A program made the translations under genes and the position numbers. A DNA stretch of 61,771 nucleotides from Stylophora pistillata (taxonomy: Eukaryota): NCBI RefSeq assembly GCF_002571385.2, contig NW_019217829.1, positions 787,232 through 849,002 of the forward strand. The letters are read 5' to 3'. The notes below the pieces were generated by a model. That model searched no databases, had not been told where the DNA came from, and worked only from the letters and a program-made list of their open reading frames with translations. Below, one piece after another: positions 30,301 to 39,046 of the stretch (the stretch's first letter is position 1; each line of letters begins with the position of its first letter).

Positions 30301-33165
30301 CGTGCGAAAAAGCTTATTCATTCCTCACGTTTCGAAGAAGAACTATTACTTGAATGCATCCAATACTAGCTACAAATAAGGCTTTTTTTTAATCCACCAA
30401 CCACCCAACCAAACATTTTCCTTCAAGTCTGACCTGTCAGAAATTTTTGACGCAAATTTTCGCCTCACTAAAAAAAAGTCATTTCTTACTGATTGTTACG
30501 AAATGTAACAAAGACGCTGCAAGTTCAAATTTTATCGTCGCCAGCATCCCTCCTGGGTTTTTTAAACGCTCTAACGTCCCTCACGTTTGTGTGGGGTATT
30601 ATTACTTAAATGCATCCAATATCCCTAAGGGTTTATTTTATGCTCCTAATTGAGATGTTTTCGCATTTCCATTCAATATTCAAAATATTGAATCTTTTCC
30701 ACTTGCCCCCACTAGGCATGAAAATATATCATGATAACAATCCCTTGGGCTGTAATGTTGTTTAATGTATTTTATATCGCCCATTAATTCCAAATGTTTT
30801 CATTTCTTTTGGGCCAATAAAGAAAATGAAGCATCCAAACCTAAGGCCCTCGCAGGTACTTGTTTAGCGGTCTTTTCGTGACACGAACTAACTTGATGCG
30901 AGTTGAACTCAGTAGAGTTATAATCAAGCTTGGTTCGGGCTGTTTTTCTGAATCGTTTTTTTTTTTTTTAGTTGATAAAGATTCTTTTTCTTTAAGCTGC
31001 AAACATAATTTTTTTTTTCACCCTTAATTAAAAGTTATACCGGACTTGCGATACATGTATTTCGGTGAATTCACTCCACTCACCAGTCTTATCTCAGTTG
31101 TCAGTTAAGTGAAAATTCTTACTACTCCAGATTAAAACCGCAATTGTTTATAAAATTCGAGTTTCTGACCACAAATCTATTTTCGTCTCAAAAGTCCTTG
31201 AGATTGCTACTTATTTCCTCTCAGATTTGTTACATTTTTATACAATATCTCCTAACGGCAGTGTTAGTAGGATTAGCTTTCTTCGAACTTGACTCGAGCC
31301 ACACCTTCACGAAACATGTTCCTTGCTGAAAGAGAAGCTTTCGACCACACGGTGTTTCAAAATTAAAGAAAACAATGATTATAAAATCTCGAGAGCAAAC
31401 GAATTCGCACTTAAAAAGGACTTGGAGGATCCTTCTTTCCGTGATTTTTAGTTTAGCTGCAGTGATTTTGGATGCGGAGGAGTGACAGCCGTGATCAAAT
31501 TCATGACATTTTCCATCAACTTAGACTAAATCCAAATTCTTTCAAATAATGCGCTTGCTAGCAAACGTGGGAAAAGCATGCAGTAATATTGGGTCGCAGT
31601 CACATTCGGTCAAATGGTTCGAGTGACTGTAGACTGTTGAGAGAATCTCATTGGTAGCTGGCGTTTATAGCTTTCAGTTAGATTCCCTGACACAATGCTT
31701 GTCAAAGTGCCTAGTGACAGGGCGCTTGATATCGACGTTGACATTGTAAACTGCAATTGCTGGACATTCTATTTGGGGGGTTAATCGGCATTGAAATAAA
31801 GCGCTTTAGTGAAAGCCGTGTTTCGCACTCGGTATGAAGTCTGGTCAGTACATCTTTGCAGATACGCAGACAGTACATCTCTTCAGCGAGTCTCTGACAG
31901 TAGCAGCAGTTTCTATCAAATACATAATTCAGTACAGAGGTGAGTTTCAGTTGCAACATAAAGTTTTCTTCACGGTTTTCGTCCTTTAAATTCATCTCAG
32001 TCCATATATTTCAACTGGCAGTTGCGTAATTTCGCCACCTGCAGTTTATTGGTGAAAATCTGAATCGTAATTTTAATTGTGGACCACTAAAAAGCATTTA
32101 CTTTAAAACTGTTTCTTGATTTGAACAACCTTTCCTCTAACTTGTACAAAATTGTAGAGTATGTAAACTAGATAACAATAGATGTGTTTTGGCCTGACCG
32201 CCTATCCAGCCGATATGTTTCCTAAGTAGGAAAAATGACGACATTAAGATGTTAAAGATACAGTTTTCCCTTATTTACTCTTAGCCCCATCAACTACAAA
32301 CAATCTTTGCGTTGAACTGATTTTTCCTATCTTTGAAAAAAACATACGGGCAAAAATTTTCCAACTCTGCCCCCACACGAAGCTTCCTAGGATAAATGCA
32401 ATTAGTTTATTTCTTCAGGAGTAAGTTGAATCATGGAGTGATAGAGCTGAAAGAATAATTCTTTAGTTATGTGCTTTCACCTGGAACTAAAACGTTAAGT
32501 GGCCGGACAAACGTAGCTCATGCGTTGCGCAGAGAATACATCCAGTGCTCTTCAACGTGTTTGATTCTCTGACTTGCCGTCAAGAAAAAAAGGAAACAAA
32601 CGTGTGACCAATGGGCAAATTTAATTTCAAATTGTCAGCCAATGTGAAGAGTAAAATAAACTTCATTAAACTGATACAATGGCAAAAGTGGGCGCGTAGG
32701 GAAAAAAAATGCCCCTGCCAAAGAAGAGGAAATATCGAATGATATCAGCTCGAGAGGTGGCACGTTTTCTCTTGAAAGGGCTCATAAAATCAACACGATT
32801 TCGACCAATGAATGAAGCGGATCAATTTTTATCTGATCTGTATTTCAAGCTTTCTCCGTCTTTGTGGATAACGATCGTTTCGTGCATTCATGTAAAAGAG
32901 AGCCAAAAGCTGTAAACATTCGTAACGTTATTTGCCGAACATTGACAGTACGCTCCAACTGGTGACTCTATTTTAGTTGAAAACATTGACAAATGTAATT
33001 ACTTCTGGATTTGCATTGCTTACTCTAACATCTTTAGCGACCCGTGGAATAAAAAAAAAATCAATGAAACTTTCACTGCTTCGCGTTATTACTGCAAGAT
33101 TTTGATCACTAACAAATCGGAAAACCGAAAAAAACTACCTGTGCAAAACTCATTTAGAACTGAAA

Positions 33166-33270
33166 CTCGCTCTGACGAAGGGCTAACGCTCGAAACGTAA
33201 GCTTTAGAAGCTCATTAGTAAGGCTAATTTACATTAACAACTCATGCAGTTGATGAAACCAAATTATCTC
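33166..33270 (+). ncRNA. Minimal type I hammerhead ribozyme motif at the head of a short Penelope-LTR-like repeat
   Basis: GCU (33169-71), CUGACGA (33172-78), extra A, stem II GGGC/UAAC/GCUC, GAAA (33192-95), C, GUA cleavage triplet (33197-99), then AGC (33200-02) pairing with GCU. Related copies at ~46325 and ~54191. Confidence 0.7.
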
Positions 33271-36200
33271 ATTTTAGAAAACCCCTGGAAGACATTTTCT
33301 TATGCGGCCATGGTCTACCAATTAAGACTTATTTATTTTCCTCTGACGTGCTGAAACATGACCTTCGATCATCACGTGTGTTGGGGAACTGATTTTGTCA
33401 AAGAGGGGTCAAGATCATGGAGAACTATTAGTATTATTTTGAAAGAGATATAAGCAGTGAATTGCATAACATCTCTTGATGTACGTTGGCATAAATTATA
33501 CCTTCAGGTTATATTGTAACACGGTGCTGTTATCGATATTCAAGCCTCGTAGTTCGGCAAGTTTACGAGAGGAAACATAAATGTTGCATCCACAAGTTTT
33601 GTATAATTAGAGGTTTTCGCTTTCTGAAAGTAAGATGTGGAATTTATTGCGGGTTTCCCCTGTTGTTTTGAAAGTATATTGTCTTTCATTCTTTTGTTTA
33701 TGCTGTATTTTTTTTTTCACTTTAACTATGCAAAGGCATTGTGTATTGCCATTTCTTTTCTCCTTGGTGTTGAATCAGGCTCGTTTCGAGAGAGGCCTGT
33801 GATTAGTTCACGAGTAATTCCCAGAGGATAAGACCTTCGTGGGGGCTTGTGCAGACCTACGGCTAAACAATGTGTAATTATAAGCTAATTCCTGTATTAA
33901 ATGTGAAAAACAAAGGGACGGGTTCTGTGAAGATCTTTGGCAGATACCTTGAGTTTCTGGGAACCTCTCTCACCTTTCTTTCCAAAGATGTTTCTTTACC
34001 TAGATACTCTAGCTGCTACTAATACAGCTGGCGAACCCTTGCCTAAGTAATTCTATGCTTTTTATTCATTCAATTTTGGTGTTCCCTTGAGAAATTACCG
34101 TGTCTGATTCCTTGGTAGTGCGATCAAAACGCTACTCATTACTTTGAAGAGGTAAAAGTCTTTCAGTTCATAGATCTTTATAGTGAAGTTGTTAAGAACT
34201 ATCGGTTTCAAATTTTGCTAACGTGTTCAGATTTGCTAAAAGACCAATCACCGTTGTTGTTAAAAAATAGTTTTCACAAGAACTCTCGAGCCTGAAACAG
34301 GAAATATAATAAATGCGTGTTAATGGCAAACTTTGAATGTCATGATTCCTGACCCCTCCTGACGGCAAATGACAATCCTGCAGCCTTTAATTAAACGATC
34401 CGTCTGTGTGTTGCATGTGTAAAGAATACTTTTGTACGTTGAATGCAATTGTTTGCCTAAGTTCACCTGACAGATCTTTTCGGCCCCCAGCGTGTTTGTG
34501 TTGTCGAATAATTGTAAATTAGTTGCTTTGTTCCAAATCAATCTGGAAGACAAAGTTAACTAGGCTTGGAAGTTGAGTCGCCGTGTTGTTTGGGCAGCCC
34601 AATTACCCAGTTTACGGTAAGATTAGACACCTGAATTTTCTTCAACGCTGTTCTTAGGTCACAATCTGTACGAGATTCCGATGCTGCGAGGTTATTAAAG
34701 GCAAAAGGAAGTTTCTTGATCCGGCAAGGTCATTCTTTCTCGAGCCAAGCTAAGATAGCGCAGTTGAAATAATTTCGCGTGGCTTTGACGGCATTTTACG
34801 ACAGAAATGTCATTATCACATAGTGTGTACTGAACTCAACATAATGCAAGAAACGTTTCTTGTAAGCATTTGTTTTCTGGCGTCTTTGTGTGGGTGGACT
34901 AAACTGTAGCAGCTAGGATCATGATACTGACAAGACTCCCAGCACGTACATGTGCTAAGACAACTTTTGTACGTGGGCCGCGTTTTTAAAGTTGAGCTGA
35001 AAATCCTGGCTCCCAATTCCTTGGTCTAACGCTCGCGTAATCAAAACGAGAGTGGATTCCTTGGTTATTTTGGTCTTTTCAATTTCCTTAGATGTATAAA
35101 TTAGCATTTATTTCAAGAATTTCAAGTATAGTTTTTGGAGTTGAAGTCTCATAGATGAGACAAATGTTCCTTTAGATCATTTTAGTCATGTTAGCACAAA
35201 GACTGAAGTAAGACCAGTTTACCAGTCTGCGAGGAAGACACTTCTAATCAGATCTTTTTGTCCTCGAAAACTGGCGAAAAGATAAGTCAGGTTGCAATTT
35301 TATAGAAGCTTCCTCCGCATTTTATCACCAACGCTACAGAAGCACGAAGAATTTGTAGTTTTGAGGGGGGCAGTTTCGGAAATCTTTCGGCATCAAATTC
35401 TTCAGCATGGTGCACCATTATCAATCGCATAGATCGGCTCGGCACTTTCACGTTTTTCTTCGGTGCTTTGTTGTCCGACTTCCACCGAAAATGTAAAGTA
35501 TTTGGATGTTACTAATACTCCGTAATTCTATCATCAGACTGAAGGGCAGAAATTTCGTAGCAAAGTATATAGATTACGACAATAATATGACATAGAAAGA
35601 TATTCCTTCGATTTATCTTTACTTTTATTACAGATTTTCGTAAGTATTATTCACTCTGACTGTTTGGATTTTCAAGCTTAAGGAATGATGTAGGCACCGT
35701 AGATAGATAAACACGTGTAAAGAATTCCGGCCAAAGGCCTCGCTCAAATTGTATAAACTTTGACTGGTGACCACACGTCACTTTCGAGTATATACAGGTG
35801 TACCCTCCATGCGGTTTTCAGCAATCGTTTGAGATCAGTGAAGTCTTCAGGTTAATTACCGTCATTTGAATCTATTGCCACGCCGTGCGGCCGACTAAAT
35901 GGATCAGATTTAATTTTGTTCCACTTCTGAAGGGCTCAGTTGAGGAGTATCTATGTGCACAACATTCACCGCTTGGTACTTGCAGTTTGGCTCTTGAACA
36001 GAGCCTTTTAGAGATTTGACCACCATTTATAAGCTAGATAACTTCTTGAGGACATCTTCACGGCAGTTTGTAAACGCATTTGATTCCGTGTATCGTTAAC
36101 GAACTCAATAATTGTCTCATTGTATCTGCCTGATGCTGTATTTATATCACCTCTATATTGTATCGTGAGCATAAGATTTAAGAATTTAAGAGAGAAGTAT

Positions 36201-37149
36201 ATTGCGTTAGAGCCTCTGATTGTCTTTGAACAGATATTGTTTTAAAAGCTGTCACAGGTAGTTTGTTTCATCTGTCGAACGATCCCCTCTTTGCCATTGA
36301 AACTGTCAGAAAACGACAGTAAAGTGACAACGCTGTGAAAGAAGCTTTTACTTGCAAACAAAGCTTCGTGTAAATAGCTTTCCAAAACAAGTATCTTGTC
36401 ACTATGCACTTATTAATTACTACAAAAGCTGTTAATTTTACAGTAATGATACTTGCTTCAAGGAATTAATCTTGATCTAAACGATTACGTGATAAGAGCG
36501 AAACGAAAATAAGTCTGAGTGGGTTTTAACTCAACTACGAGCTATTCTTGGTCATACCCTCAGAGTGAACGTTCCCACTCAGTTTTGGTCACCAGTTTTG
36601 TTTTCGGCGTACCGTATACAGCTTAACGCCAGTCAACAGCGAGGTCGAATTGATTATCCTCTTGAGAGGGGTTTAGAAAACGGAAATTTTTGGTTATCGT
36701 GAGAATGACAATAATTGGGTTCTCACTTCACACCTTTTTATAGCCCTAGCGGCTCTTAAGAATCCATTTAATTCAGTTTTAATAGCCTATGTAATTATTG
36801 GGTAACTTCCGTTTTGAAAAGTATAAATAGACCTCCTACAGAGCAGCTATACTTATAGCCTTTTGTTCTAGAACGGCTGCTGTTTATAAGTTCAGATAGC
36901 TGCTGTGAAGAGCGTTCAAGGGACCCGCGTTTACTAAGCTTAAGCTCCATTGAAAAACTGGCTTTAATATAGCGAGATAAAACGTTCGCCAACACGGGCG
37001 TCGAACTTCTGTTGTATTACAAGGCGTGTTATTCGTCAAGGATCTTGTCATTTCCACTTCCGAAGACAGATCGTGTCGGCACTGAATGTTTTTGATGAAT
37101 TCTTTACATTGTGGCGCACCTGGGCAGTGCGATTGTCTTTGCGTGTGTT

Positions 37150-37722
37150 GTTTATAAATTTGGTTACAACAGTTGTAGCAAGGGATCGTGCTTGGTGTTG
37201 AGTGTTGTTAAATCACTTCGCAGCTTCAACTAGTGACCCTATGATCCTCATTCCGGGGGTCAACATACGCCGTGGGGCTTTTTATGGAAAGAAAGCAAAT
37301 ATTGGAACGTGATACGGCAGTTATTTAATTTGCCTTCCTGTGATACAATATAAGTGCTTCGATTTTTACCTTAAATCGTTGTGAATTCAGAGATTAGGGA
37401 TCTGTGGGAATTTGTCTGTGGAACAACAGGGCGAGTGCGCAGAGAACCGTCTGTTGTTAAGAATATCACTTAATTAATTCAGGTAAAATCTACCCGACGA
37501 GTTTCAATCGTAACTTTATTCGATGAAATCGGACAGATTACGTGGTAAAGCTGTATATAGATAAGTTACGAGCGGATGCGGGAAGTCATAATTCTTGAGC
37601 ATCCAATGCCACTTAATCCTTGTAATCTTTGGGAAACACTTATGTAAAGACGAAATTTAGATAACGTAAAATTCAATCGCCTAAGCCATTGACTCATATA
37701 GATCGTTTCCTGTTCTCTCAAG
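37150..37722 (+). promoter_or_regulatory. Putative BMP2/4 core promoter, non-coding first exon and 5'UTR intron (37483-37722)
   Basis: TATAAA at ~37153, CAG|GTAAAA donor at 37483, and TTTCCTGTTCTCTCAAG acceptor at 37722, 22 nt before the ATG. This fits the usual BMP2/4 layout of one non-coding plus two coding exons. Confidence 0.5.
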
Positions 37723-37744
37723 GAGTTCGTGCTAGGAACGAAAG

Positions 37745-39046
37745 ATGTTGATCGCTCAGATGTGGTGTTTACTCTTTGGAGCAACGATATGCTTAGAAGT
37801 ACGATCCCTCTCTTTGGGTCATTCTGCGGACAACCAGCGTTCGGAATTATTCAAAGGAGCAGAACAAGCCATGTTGCAAAAGATGGGTTTACAATCTCGC
37901 CCCAGACTGAGAAAAGGAGAAAAAGACAAAGTACCTCAGTATATGTTCGACTTGTATCACAATCACATCAGTGATCCAGAATGGATTTCTACCAATTTTA
38001 GAAACAAGGGAAAATGGACCTTTGCCAATACCATCCGGGCATTTGATCATGATGGTGAGTGGATCATAATTTGGTACTAGAGATAGAATATTTAGGTTGG
38101 CAACCTGTCCTTTGTAAACGTGACATATCAAGGACCAATGCAGTGTTACGAGTGTTTCCCACCGGCTGTGTTCCCTATGCGAAAACAAGTGTTAACTCTG
38201 TTTATTTTTGTTTGTTCAAAAGGTGACCATCTGCCTGTTCCAGTGGCAGGATTGGCCTCAAACGGATGGAACCTCTTCTTCGACGTACGCTCCCTTCCCA
38301 GTCAAGAAACCTTGACGGCAGCAGAACTTCGTTTGACGTTTTCAGGCGCAAAGAACCACACTAACGAAACTGTTCCAGTAGTACAGCATCGTGTGGACAT
38401 TCATCAAGTCATGTTACCGCAAACAGCTGGGCATCCGGCTATAACTCGTTTAATAGACACAAAGAGAACGGCTGGTCGTGGAGTAGAAATTTTCGACATT
38501 AAATCTGCAGTTCAACATTGGGCACTTAATCCCGATGAGAATTTTGGCGTTGAGGTACGTCTTGTCAGCACTGATGAATCTCCAAATGTTCACATGAGCG
38601 CGAACAAAAGAGCGACAAAAGACACTAAACCACTTCTGGTCACGTTCAGCCACGACGGGAAACAACACGTCTATCGCCGTCGTAAACGAAGAAGTCGACG
38701 GAGTACGGGAAACCGTCTGGCGAAAGACAGCACCTACTGTCAAAGGCTGCCTCTATATGTTGACTTTGTAGAGGTTGGATGGAATGATTGGATCGTTGCA
38801 CCACCCGGATACCCAGCATTTTATTGCAATGGCGAATGTCCCTTTCCTATCGCAGACCACTTGAACACCACAAATCATGCCATTGTACAGACCCTTGTAA
38901 ACAGTGTAAACGCGGACCTTGTGCCTCGTGCCTGCTGCGTGCCTACGACACTAAATCCTATCAGTATGCTTTTCGTGAACGAGCACTCTAAGGTGGTGCT
39001 CAAAAACTACCAGGATATGGTGGTAGATGGATGTGGATGTCGGTGA
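37745..39046 (+). CDS. BMP2/4: Bone morphogenetic protein 2/4 (Dpp) preproprotein, 377 aa; exons 37745-38054 and 38223-39046
   Basis: Signal peptide; prodomain motifs [39 protein letters not shown]; polybasic furin site RRRKRRSRR. The mature seven-Cys domain reads [60 protein letters not shown]....[18 protein letters not shown]. Phase-1 GT-AG intron. Confidence 0.97.

What the first reader, a model, noticed from the sequence alone, without database searches (positions are those of the whole stretch)
33166..33270. Intact minimal hammerhead ribozyme motif ~4 kb upstream of BMP2/4
Seen: all core nucleotides are in order: CUGACGA, one extra A, stem II GGGC(UAAC)GCUC, GAAA and a GUA triplet. Helix I is 3 bp (GCU/AGC) and helix III is reduced to the palindrome ACGU. 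Known: such minimal type I hammerheads occur in Penelope-like element LTRs and small non-autonomous retrozymes, and are proposed to cleave as dimers through the palindrome. Inference: the ~140-bp repeat family (3 copies here) is a ribozyme-headed, non-coding retroelement mobilised by Penelope RT.
Basis: partly seen in the sequence, partly recalled or inferred. Interest (0 to 1): 0.7.

Follow-up and report, generated by a model that had tools for sequence, protein, structure and literature searches.

The report
Penelope retrotransposon end carrying hammerhead ribozyme
The hammerhead-ribozyme motif near this coral BMP2/4 gene is real, but it is one old, decaying copy among thousands of the end-piece of a Penelope-type jumping gene in which the same motif has already been published, so it is likely ordinary genomic debris rather than a separate element or a regulator of the gene.

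Summary
The motif is at 33169-33202 as described. It is the minimal hammerhead in the terminal repeat (pLTR) of an autonomous Neptune-type Penelope-like retrotransposon. Except for the triplet (GUA here, GUC there) it matches the motif published for a coral Neptune (PMC4209133 supplement). The 27-nt core occurs exactly 586 times, and 3,603 times in a U4C form. Longer copies run into an RT + GIY-YIG ORF, and one locus has the 5' ribozyme-ORF-3' ribozyme layout. The window copy is a 105-bp fragment of an old subfamily whose inserted copies decay neutrally; no RNA read carried its private bases. Short copies start just upstream of the ribozyme, below a TATA box, not at its cut site, and end at two fixed points. 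They are likely run-off reverse transcripts of uncut element RNA, not a separate retrozyme. Side result: the youngest subfamily amplified most while carrying U4C in the catalytic core. Earlier scan notes describe related Penelope-linked hammerhead repeats in other genomes, and Penelope-style ends on another repeat in this genome. Verdict: already known, low interest.

The parts
33165..33269 (+). Copy 1: short pLTR fragment of a Neptune-type Penelope-like element, old subfamily A, ending at the first fixed 3' end (no tail)
   Evidence: Aligned to the subfamily A consensus with 10 mismatches in 62 flank positions plus a 4-nt insertion; starts 5-7 nt above C3
33169..33202 (+). Minimal type I hammerhead motif: helix I 3 bp, extra A at 33179, stem II 4 bp, ACGU palindrome in place of helix III, GUA triplet, predicted cut after 33199
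   Evidence: Sequence; shuffle controls; same motif with GUC in PMC4209133 Suppl. Fig. S3
46295..46321 (-). Inverted partial arm (ribozyme part only) head-to-head with copy 2, sharing some of its changes
46322..46439 (+). Copy 2: subfamily A fragment with decayed core and degenerate partial tail
54188..54335 (+). Copy 3: subfamily A fragment, core U4A, GUC triplet, full tail to the second fixed 3' end
36822..39046 (+). Neighbour, not part of the element: BMP2/4-type gene (TATA box 36822, ATG 37745, coding intron about 38054-38222)

Best explanation
This is a 105-bp fragment of the hammerhead-bearing terminal repeat of a Neptune-type Penelope-like retrotransposon, one of thousands in the genome, and it was likely pasted here long ago as a short reverse transcript of uncut element RNA and is likely inert now. 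Shown: the full element is pLTR (TATA-like box, ribozyme, two fixed ends) - 5' leader - one ORF (RT, CX4CX2C linker, GIY-YIG with CCHH) - pLTR; short copies start 0-10 nt above the core and end near +92 or +150; about half of the short ones have an inverted arm. Inferred: transcription starts about 7 nt above the core, 31 nt below TATAAA, so the ribozyme sits at the RNA's 5' end. The element's RT-endonuclease nicks DNA, starts copying at one of two internal sites (as shown in vitro for another PLE, PMC11167929) and runs off the RNA's 5' end, which gives 100- or 155-bp inserts; priming on both strands would give the inverted pairs, and read-through tandem RNAs would give the longer copies with ORF. 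The ribozyme would cut only as a dimer or with protein help, and cutting is not what defines the insert ends.
For: Copy number: 586 and 3,603 exact cores, reversed-pattern control 0. ORF link: the core begins 101 nt after the ORF in L064, which has RVT_1 and GIY-YIG hits. L292 has ribozymes 2,932 bp apart around the ORF plus an inverted one upstream; the published coral Neptune has 3,033 bp. Subfamily A copy L143 runs 423 nt upstream into the endonuclease, 77% aa identical. 5' ends: 54 of 85 copies stop within 10 nt above C3, 4 of 85 at 13-40 nt, 27 of 85 longer; TATAAA or TTTAAAA at -38. Reads show loose ends and strand switches at -7, -6 and -3. 3' ends: 25 of 74 at +85-100 and 31 of 74 at +136-160, the PLE tail signature. 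Inverted arm in 30 of 61 short copies, three loci counted from both arms. Uncut template: 24 of 26 copies picked on a downstream anchor keep the core upstream of the cut site; no pile of read ends anywhere. Neutral decay: catalytic positions 30 of 261 mismatched against flank 74 of 539, p=0.43. No read carried the window copy's private bases at 33210, 33237 or 33238, and RNA depth was 0 at 32601-33002.
Against: The start site is inferred from a TATA/initiator spacing only; random-fragment RNA-seq cannot show it, and D. virilis Penelope uses a TATA-less internal promoter. The young subfamily has the weaker TTTAAAA. 5' ends spread over about 10 nt rather than one base. Only 4 of 38 subfamily A copies are long, which also fits a short non-autonomous source. 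No intact full-length ORF was recovered (longest clean frames 594 and 604 aa; L292 is frameshifted). The RNA test read only about 2% of one pooled raw-read set plus one contig set, so low or tissue-specific transcription of this copy is not excluded. Neptune membership rests on motifs and the published label, not on a tree.
Confidence: 0.85

Rival explanations
1. The short copies come from a dedicated non-autonomous master derived from the pLTR and mobilised in trans.
For: 34 of 38 subfamily A copies are short. pLTR-derived tandem arrays exist: 6 units of 315 bp in L287, each with a ribozyme, and shorter runs in L288. Inverted arms share 31 non-consensus bases across 18 arm pairs, so variant templates were copied. 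A preprint derives animal retrozymes from pLTRs.
Against: Short copies are colinear with the ORF-linked pLTR in all three subfamilies, lack the TATA box, are not circularly permuted and do not start at the cut site. The 315-bp arrays are of the young subfamily and contain leader sequence that only 2 of 74 sampled copies could reach (3' ends beyond +160).
Confidence: 0.1
2. Same element, but the sharp 5' boundary comes from the RT stalling or switching template at the ribozyme's internal inverted repeat (CUGACG/CGUCAG), not from the RNA's start.
For: The family RNA's best fold pairs these six bases (-12.3 kcal/mol). Inverted arms end variably from -10 to +12.
Against: Forward arms mostly go past the hairpin to -3..-9, and a TATA box sits at the textbook distance in old and middle subfamilies.
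Confidence: 0.25
3. This copy has been co-opted as a self-cleaving or enhancer-like control element of BMP2/4.
For: It is in sense orientation, keeps all catalytic bases, and BMP2/4 has a distal 5' exon whose donor (34616) is only 1.4 kb downstream (6 reads, 3 starts). GUA is a working triplet in natural hammerheads (PMC1636495 abstract).
Against: 8 of 24 unselected subfamily A copies also keep all 11 catalytic bases. The flank is 16% diverged and the triplet has drifted. No RNA on either flank and no read with its private bases. No partner ribozyme nearby, and the monomer folds no better than shuffles (z -0.04 to -0.69). With one exact core per 95 kb, closeness to some gene is expected.
Confidence: 0.04

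Closest known systems
Minimal hammerhead in the pLTR of Acropora digitifera Neptune (Cervera and De la Pena 2014, PMC4209133; main text parts 1-2 of 4 and supplement part 1 of 3 read)
   Same: Helix I, core, extra A, stem II, loop and palindrome are letter-identical; ribozymes in both pLTRs about 3 kb apart; most motifs scattered as single truncated copies.
   Different: This copy has GUA for GUC and an older downstream flank; the largest subfamily here has U4C, which I did not see in the parts read.
Poseidon PLE of the anole, PAc (Frangieh et al. 2024, PMC11167929; parts 1-2 of 4 read)
   Same: Two internal RT start sites matching the genomic tail; ribozyme in the pLTR; uncut RNA is the main template; no reads ending at the cut site.
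   Different: Different clade; there the ORF starts inside the ribozyme, here the ATG is 227 nt downstream. Nothing was assayed here.
Metazoan non-LTR retrozymes (PMC7229834, passages; bioRxiv 10.64898/2026.07.22.740005, part 1 of 5 and passages)
   Same: Type I hammerhead, Penelope link; a few 315-bp tandem arrays here fit the preprint's definition.
   Different: Coral retrozymes have canonical hammerheads in 220-240 bp tandem units and make circular RNA; the same paper assigns coral minimal motifs to PLEs. This copy is solo, minimal and colinear with a pLTR.
Penelope of Drosophila virilis (PMC2377424, passages)
   Same: Transcript starts inside the upstream pLTR; tandem and inverted arrangements; 5' intron (here only predicted).
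   Different: TATA-less promoter there; a TATA box with initiator spacing here (predicted).

Membership tests
Minimal type I hammerhead of PLEs | Core CUGANGA...GAAA...NUH in order | tested here: met
Minimal type I hammerhead of PLEs | Extra nucleotide between 9 and 10.1, G10.1-C11.1 pair, palindromic 15.2-16.2 (PMC4209133) | tested here: met
   A33179; G33180-C33191; ACGT 33195-98
Minimal type I hammerhead of PLEs | Stem II covaries between families around a fixed core | tested here: met
   Other families among the first 100 of 1,378 generic-core hits have different, paired stems; within this family stem II does not covary
Minimal type I hammerhead of PLEs | Self-cleavage as dimer or with protein | not testable with these tools
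   Computed dimer fold -10.3 against best cofold -19.5 kcal/mol; no read-end pile
Endonuclease-bearing Penelope-like element | One ORF with RT and C-terminal GIY-YIG with CCHH | tested here: met
   RVT_1 E 1.6e-7 and GIY-YIG E 4.5e-4 (below Pfam's cut-off) in L064; IYC..C..YIG, REH, RHF in the translation
Endonuclease-bearing Penelope-like element | pLTRs with hammerhead at both ends; inverted truncated copy at the 5' end | tested here: met
   L292; 30 of 61 short copies with inverted arm
Endonuclease-bearing Penelope-like element | Optional tail giving two 3' ends | tested here: met
   Bimodal ends near +92 and +150; this tail is longer than the 30-40 bp cited
Endonuclease-bearing Penelope-like element | Retained spliceosomal intron | tested here: inconclusive
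   Branch-point-like, pyrimidine-rich, CAG acceptor 18 nt before the ATG; no donor or spliced read sought
Neptune clade | CX2-5CxxC linker between RT and endonuclease | tested here: met
   CARARCKTC in L064 and L085; shared with Nematis
Neptune clade | RT phylogeny | not tested
   No reference set held; label taken from PMC4209133 Table S1 for the element with the same ribozyme
Non-LTR retrozyme | Tandem units of 170-400 bp, each with a hammerhead | tested here: not met
   Window copies are 13 kb and 8 kb apart; met only by separate arrays such as L287
Non-LTR retrozyme | No ORF-bearing parent colinear with the unit | tested here: not met
   Long copies of subfamilies A, B and C continue into the ORF
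Non-LTR retrozyme | Abundant circular RNA of unit length | not testable with these tools
   No small or circular RNA library was offered

The most novel reading that the evidence does not exclude
This family is a natural experiment on what the Penelope hammerhead is for. The youngest, most amplified lineage fixed U4C in the catalytic core while keeping the rest of the 34-nt fold, and thousands of inserts were copied from uncut RNA between two internal RT start sites and a TATA-driven start just above the ribozyme. The motif is then kept mainly as a 5' structural or protein-binding module, or as a deliberately weak brake on the element's own RNA, and weakening its cleavage helped the lineage spread.
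Probability: 0.3. Interest if true: 0.5.

Novelty: already known. Interest (0 to 1): 0.2.

Why it matters
The locus itself matters little: it is an old fragment of a known element with a published ribozyme, and its place near BMP2/4 is expected by chance. The family is more useful. The role of hammerheads in Penelope-like elements is stated to be unclear, and in vitro work found cleavage unnecessary for insertion. Thousands of genomic copies with fixed ends, and matched U4 and C4 lineages, make that question directly testable in a coral element. It also warns that solo minimal hammerheads in cnidarian genomes should be checked against pLTRs before being called retrozymes.

Tried and rejected
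Rfam scan of the whole window: no hammerhead model reaches E 1; uninformative for minimal motifs. CpG-decay rival (CUG core arising from CCG): rejected for this copy, because subfamily A picked without regard to the core has U4 in its consensus and the published motif has U4; it may explain 7 of 49 young-type copies with T. Target-site duplication: an imperfect 11-12 nt repeat at 33149 and 33268 is ambiguous because other copies end in similar letters; not claimed. Folding gives no support beyond chance for this copy, and forcing a double hammerhead on two array units costs 16 kcal/mol. Cross-species conservation of the site: run X19 (another species label) did not cover the flanks at 90% likeness, and X15 is identical to the window and may be its source; no conclusion. 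The loose read ends at +33 carry older-subfamily flank letters and are not cleavage. Subfamily comparisons A-C (p=0.053) and B-C (p=0.25) were not significant alone; A-B was (p=0.013), and B was picked on its core. Searches of earlier findings by sequence and by relatives returned nothing. Literature: 'hammerhead + U4C + self-cleavage' gave 1 paper, about a viroid variant; 'Penelope, pLTR, transcription start, TATA, hammerhead' (4 of 5 terms) gave 3 papers, 2 listed, listing only; two searches gave nothing on short Neptune copies. These searches cover open-access papers only; Repbase reports, parts 2-3 of the PMC4209133 supplement, its unreadable file 1 and preprint supplements were not seen and may already describe U4C or the start site. 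No protein-database, structure or complex job was run.

Full report
Observation. The motif is present as described at 33169-33202, with a predicted cut after 33199. It is not chance: 2 window matches at up to 3 mismatches against none in 100 shuffles, and one descriptor hit against none in 100 block shuffles. Rfam has no match. The neighbour is a TGF-beta family gene. The host appears to be a stony coral, from the labels of runs that hold the element.

Genome-wide family. The 27-nt core occurs exactly 586 times with CUGACGA and 3,603 times with CCGACGA, that is U4C; reversed-pattern controls are 0. GUA at the triplet occurs in 16 exact copies, so it is a sporadic change from GUC. A generic core pattern gives 1,378 hits, and the first 100 include other families with different but paired stem II sequences, which supports the fold for the motif class.

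Link to an autonomous element. Copies that extend upstream run into an ORF. L064 and L085 hold open frames of 594 and 604 aa with RVT_1 and, below Pfam's cut-off, GIY-YIG hits. They show the CX4CX2C linker and the CCHH-type endonuclease that PMC8557442 gives for Neptune and Nematis (passages). The core starts 101 nt after the ORF. Downstream of the tail, 5' copies continue through a leader to an ATG at +227. L292 has ribozyme-ORF-ribozyme over 2,932 bp with an inverted ribozyme upstream; its ORF is frameshifted, and no intact full-length ORF was recovered. The same ribozyme, with GUC, is printed for a Neptune element of Acropora digitifera, with copies 3,033 bp apart in the two pLTRs (PMC4209133 Suppl. 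Fig. S3 and Table S1). That paper says most such motifs are single and probably belong to truncated PLEs, and that a minimal hammerhead from a fluke did not cut as a monomer and cut weakly as a dimer.

Subfamilies. Downstream flanks separate three subfamilies. The window copies are type A. A is the most decayed (13.7% flank mismatch among anchor-picked copies; 10 of 62 for this copy), and its ORF end in L143 is 77% identical to the young ORF. Type C is youngest: 4.7% flank divergence in 11 classified copies, ORF pieces mostly 92-99% identical. Among loci picked on the ORF or leader rather than the core, 40 of 49 type C ribozymes have C4, 7 have U4 and 2 have A4. A and B have U4, as does the published motif, so U4C is derived. 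Between consensuses the 34-nt ribozyme differs at 0 (A-B) or 1 (to C) position, against 7-10 of about 61 flank positions; only A-B is significant (p=0.013) and B was picked on its core. Among inserted type A copies picked on a downstream anchor (24 of 26 kept; 2 lacked the core), catalytic positions are mismatched at 11.5% and flank at 13.7%, p=0.43; 8 of 24 keep all 11 catalytic bases and 1 of 24 the exact 27-mer. So selection appears to act on the source lineage, not on inserts, and an intact-looking core here is unremarkable.

Ends. From 116 loci had no usable core and 13 were duplicates, leaving 85. Of these, 54 stop within 10 nt above C3, 4 at 13-40 nt and 27 go further. TATAAA (types A and B) or TTTAAAA (type C) lies at -38, 31 nt above an initiator-like A at -7; the promoter reading rests on textbook spacing recalled from general knowledge. 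The young type has more long copies: 1,352 of 3,603 exact cores carry the exact 21 nt upstream, and 17 of 42 sampled are long, against 4 of 38 for type A. 3' ends are bimodal: 25 of 74 at +85-100, 31 of 74 at +136-160. An inverted arm precedes 30 of 61 short copies. In PAc, two internal RT starts produce the tail, both strands are nicked and extended, and ribozyme mutants insert normally (PMC11167929). Putting these together, short copies are best read as cDNA running from an internal start to the RNA's 5' end, made from uncut RNA. The start site and the priming steps are inferred.

RNA. Reads laid on the young element cover both strands, with depth falling steeply away from the pLTR; loose ends and strand switches cluster at -7, -6 and -3; there is no place where many molecules begin or end. 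This fits passive transcription of many inserts. On the window, nearly all reads at the motif come from other copies: all 28 reads at 33210 and all 4 at 33237-38 carry the family base rather than this copy's, and depth is 0 at 32601-33002 in both RNA sets. BMP2/4 has a polyA contig from 36940 and a minor distal exon spliced from 34616 to 37723 (6 reads, 3 starts); nothing joins it to the motif. Only about 2% of the raw-read set was read, so this is weak evidence of absence.

Folding. The monomer cannot form helix III, and its best fold pairs core bases with the cleavage strand. For this copy it is no more stable than shuffles. The computed double hammerhead is 9 kcal/mol above the best cofold. 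None of this shows or excludes protein-assisted cleavage. GUA works in natural hammerheads, more slowly than GUC (PMC1636495, abstract only). U4C is reported to lower activity considerably in vitro while sufficing in vivo for a viroid (PMC3088659, passage).

Comparison. It works like, and is, a PLE pLTR hammerhead. It is not a retrozyme by the tandem-unit criterion, although derived arrays exist elsewhere (6 units of 315 bp in L287). PMC7229834 already reports more than 6,000 type I hammerheads in a coral genome, most of them minimal and PLE-like (passage). Earlier scan notes agree in spirit; I read them after forming this view and did not use them as support.

Verdict. Observation confirmed; interpretation partly supported; already known; interest 0.2. 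What remains worth a specialist's look is the family-level picture: fixed ends consistent with run-off copying of uncut RNA, and a U4C lineage that out-amplified the canonical one.

Noticed in passing
Genome-wide; e.g. L062-L090, L111-L140: The youngest subfamily carries U4C in the catalytic core (3,603 exact copies against 586 with U4).
   Followed up: partly
L287:3025-4600 (G000:C459); L288 (G000:C67): Six 315-bp tandem units made of pLTR plus leader, each with a ribozyme, 0-1 differences between the five complete units: a retrozyme-like array derived from this element. One frame is open around the whole unit but has no ATG (63 of 5,000 shuffles do as well).
   Followed up: partly
L292:2022-5086 (G000:C111): Full-length but frameshifted element with both pLTR ribozymes and an inverted 5' arm.
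   Followed up: partly
L259, about +175 to +209 from C3: Branch-point-like and pyrimidine-rich sequence ending in CAG 18 nt before the ATG: a predicted intron acceptor; the donor is unknown and could lie near the ribozyme.
   Followed up: no
window 34616 to 37723: BMP2/4-type gene has a minor distal 5' exon spliced over a 3.1-kb intron, besides the main unspliced 5' UTR from about 36940.
   Followed up: partly
L199, L211, L222 and one search list: At least five other minimal-hammerhead families with different stem II sequences exist in this genome.
   Followed up: no
window 49788-51126: 76-bp inverted repeats (89%) enclose a THAP-domain frame (50274-50981, minus; Pfam E 4e-14) and an opposite 179-aa frame: a DNA-transposon-like unit.
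   Followed up: no
window 391-3043, minus strand: Exon-like frames of an ABC transporter (ABC_membrane hits at 391-717 and 952-1431).
   Followed up: no
window 52980-53084; 57389-57660: A hairpin with 47-nt arms and 11-nt spacer; a 27-bp-period tandem repeat.
   Followed up: no
window 61139-61618 and 11171-11518: Frames that look like LINE remnants (weak zf-RVT hit for the first; the second by eye only).
   Followed up: no
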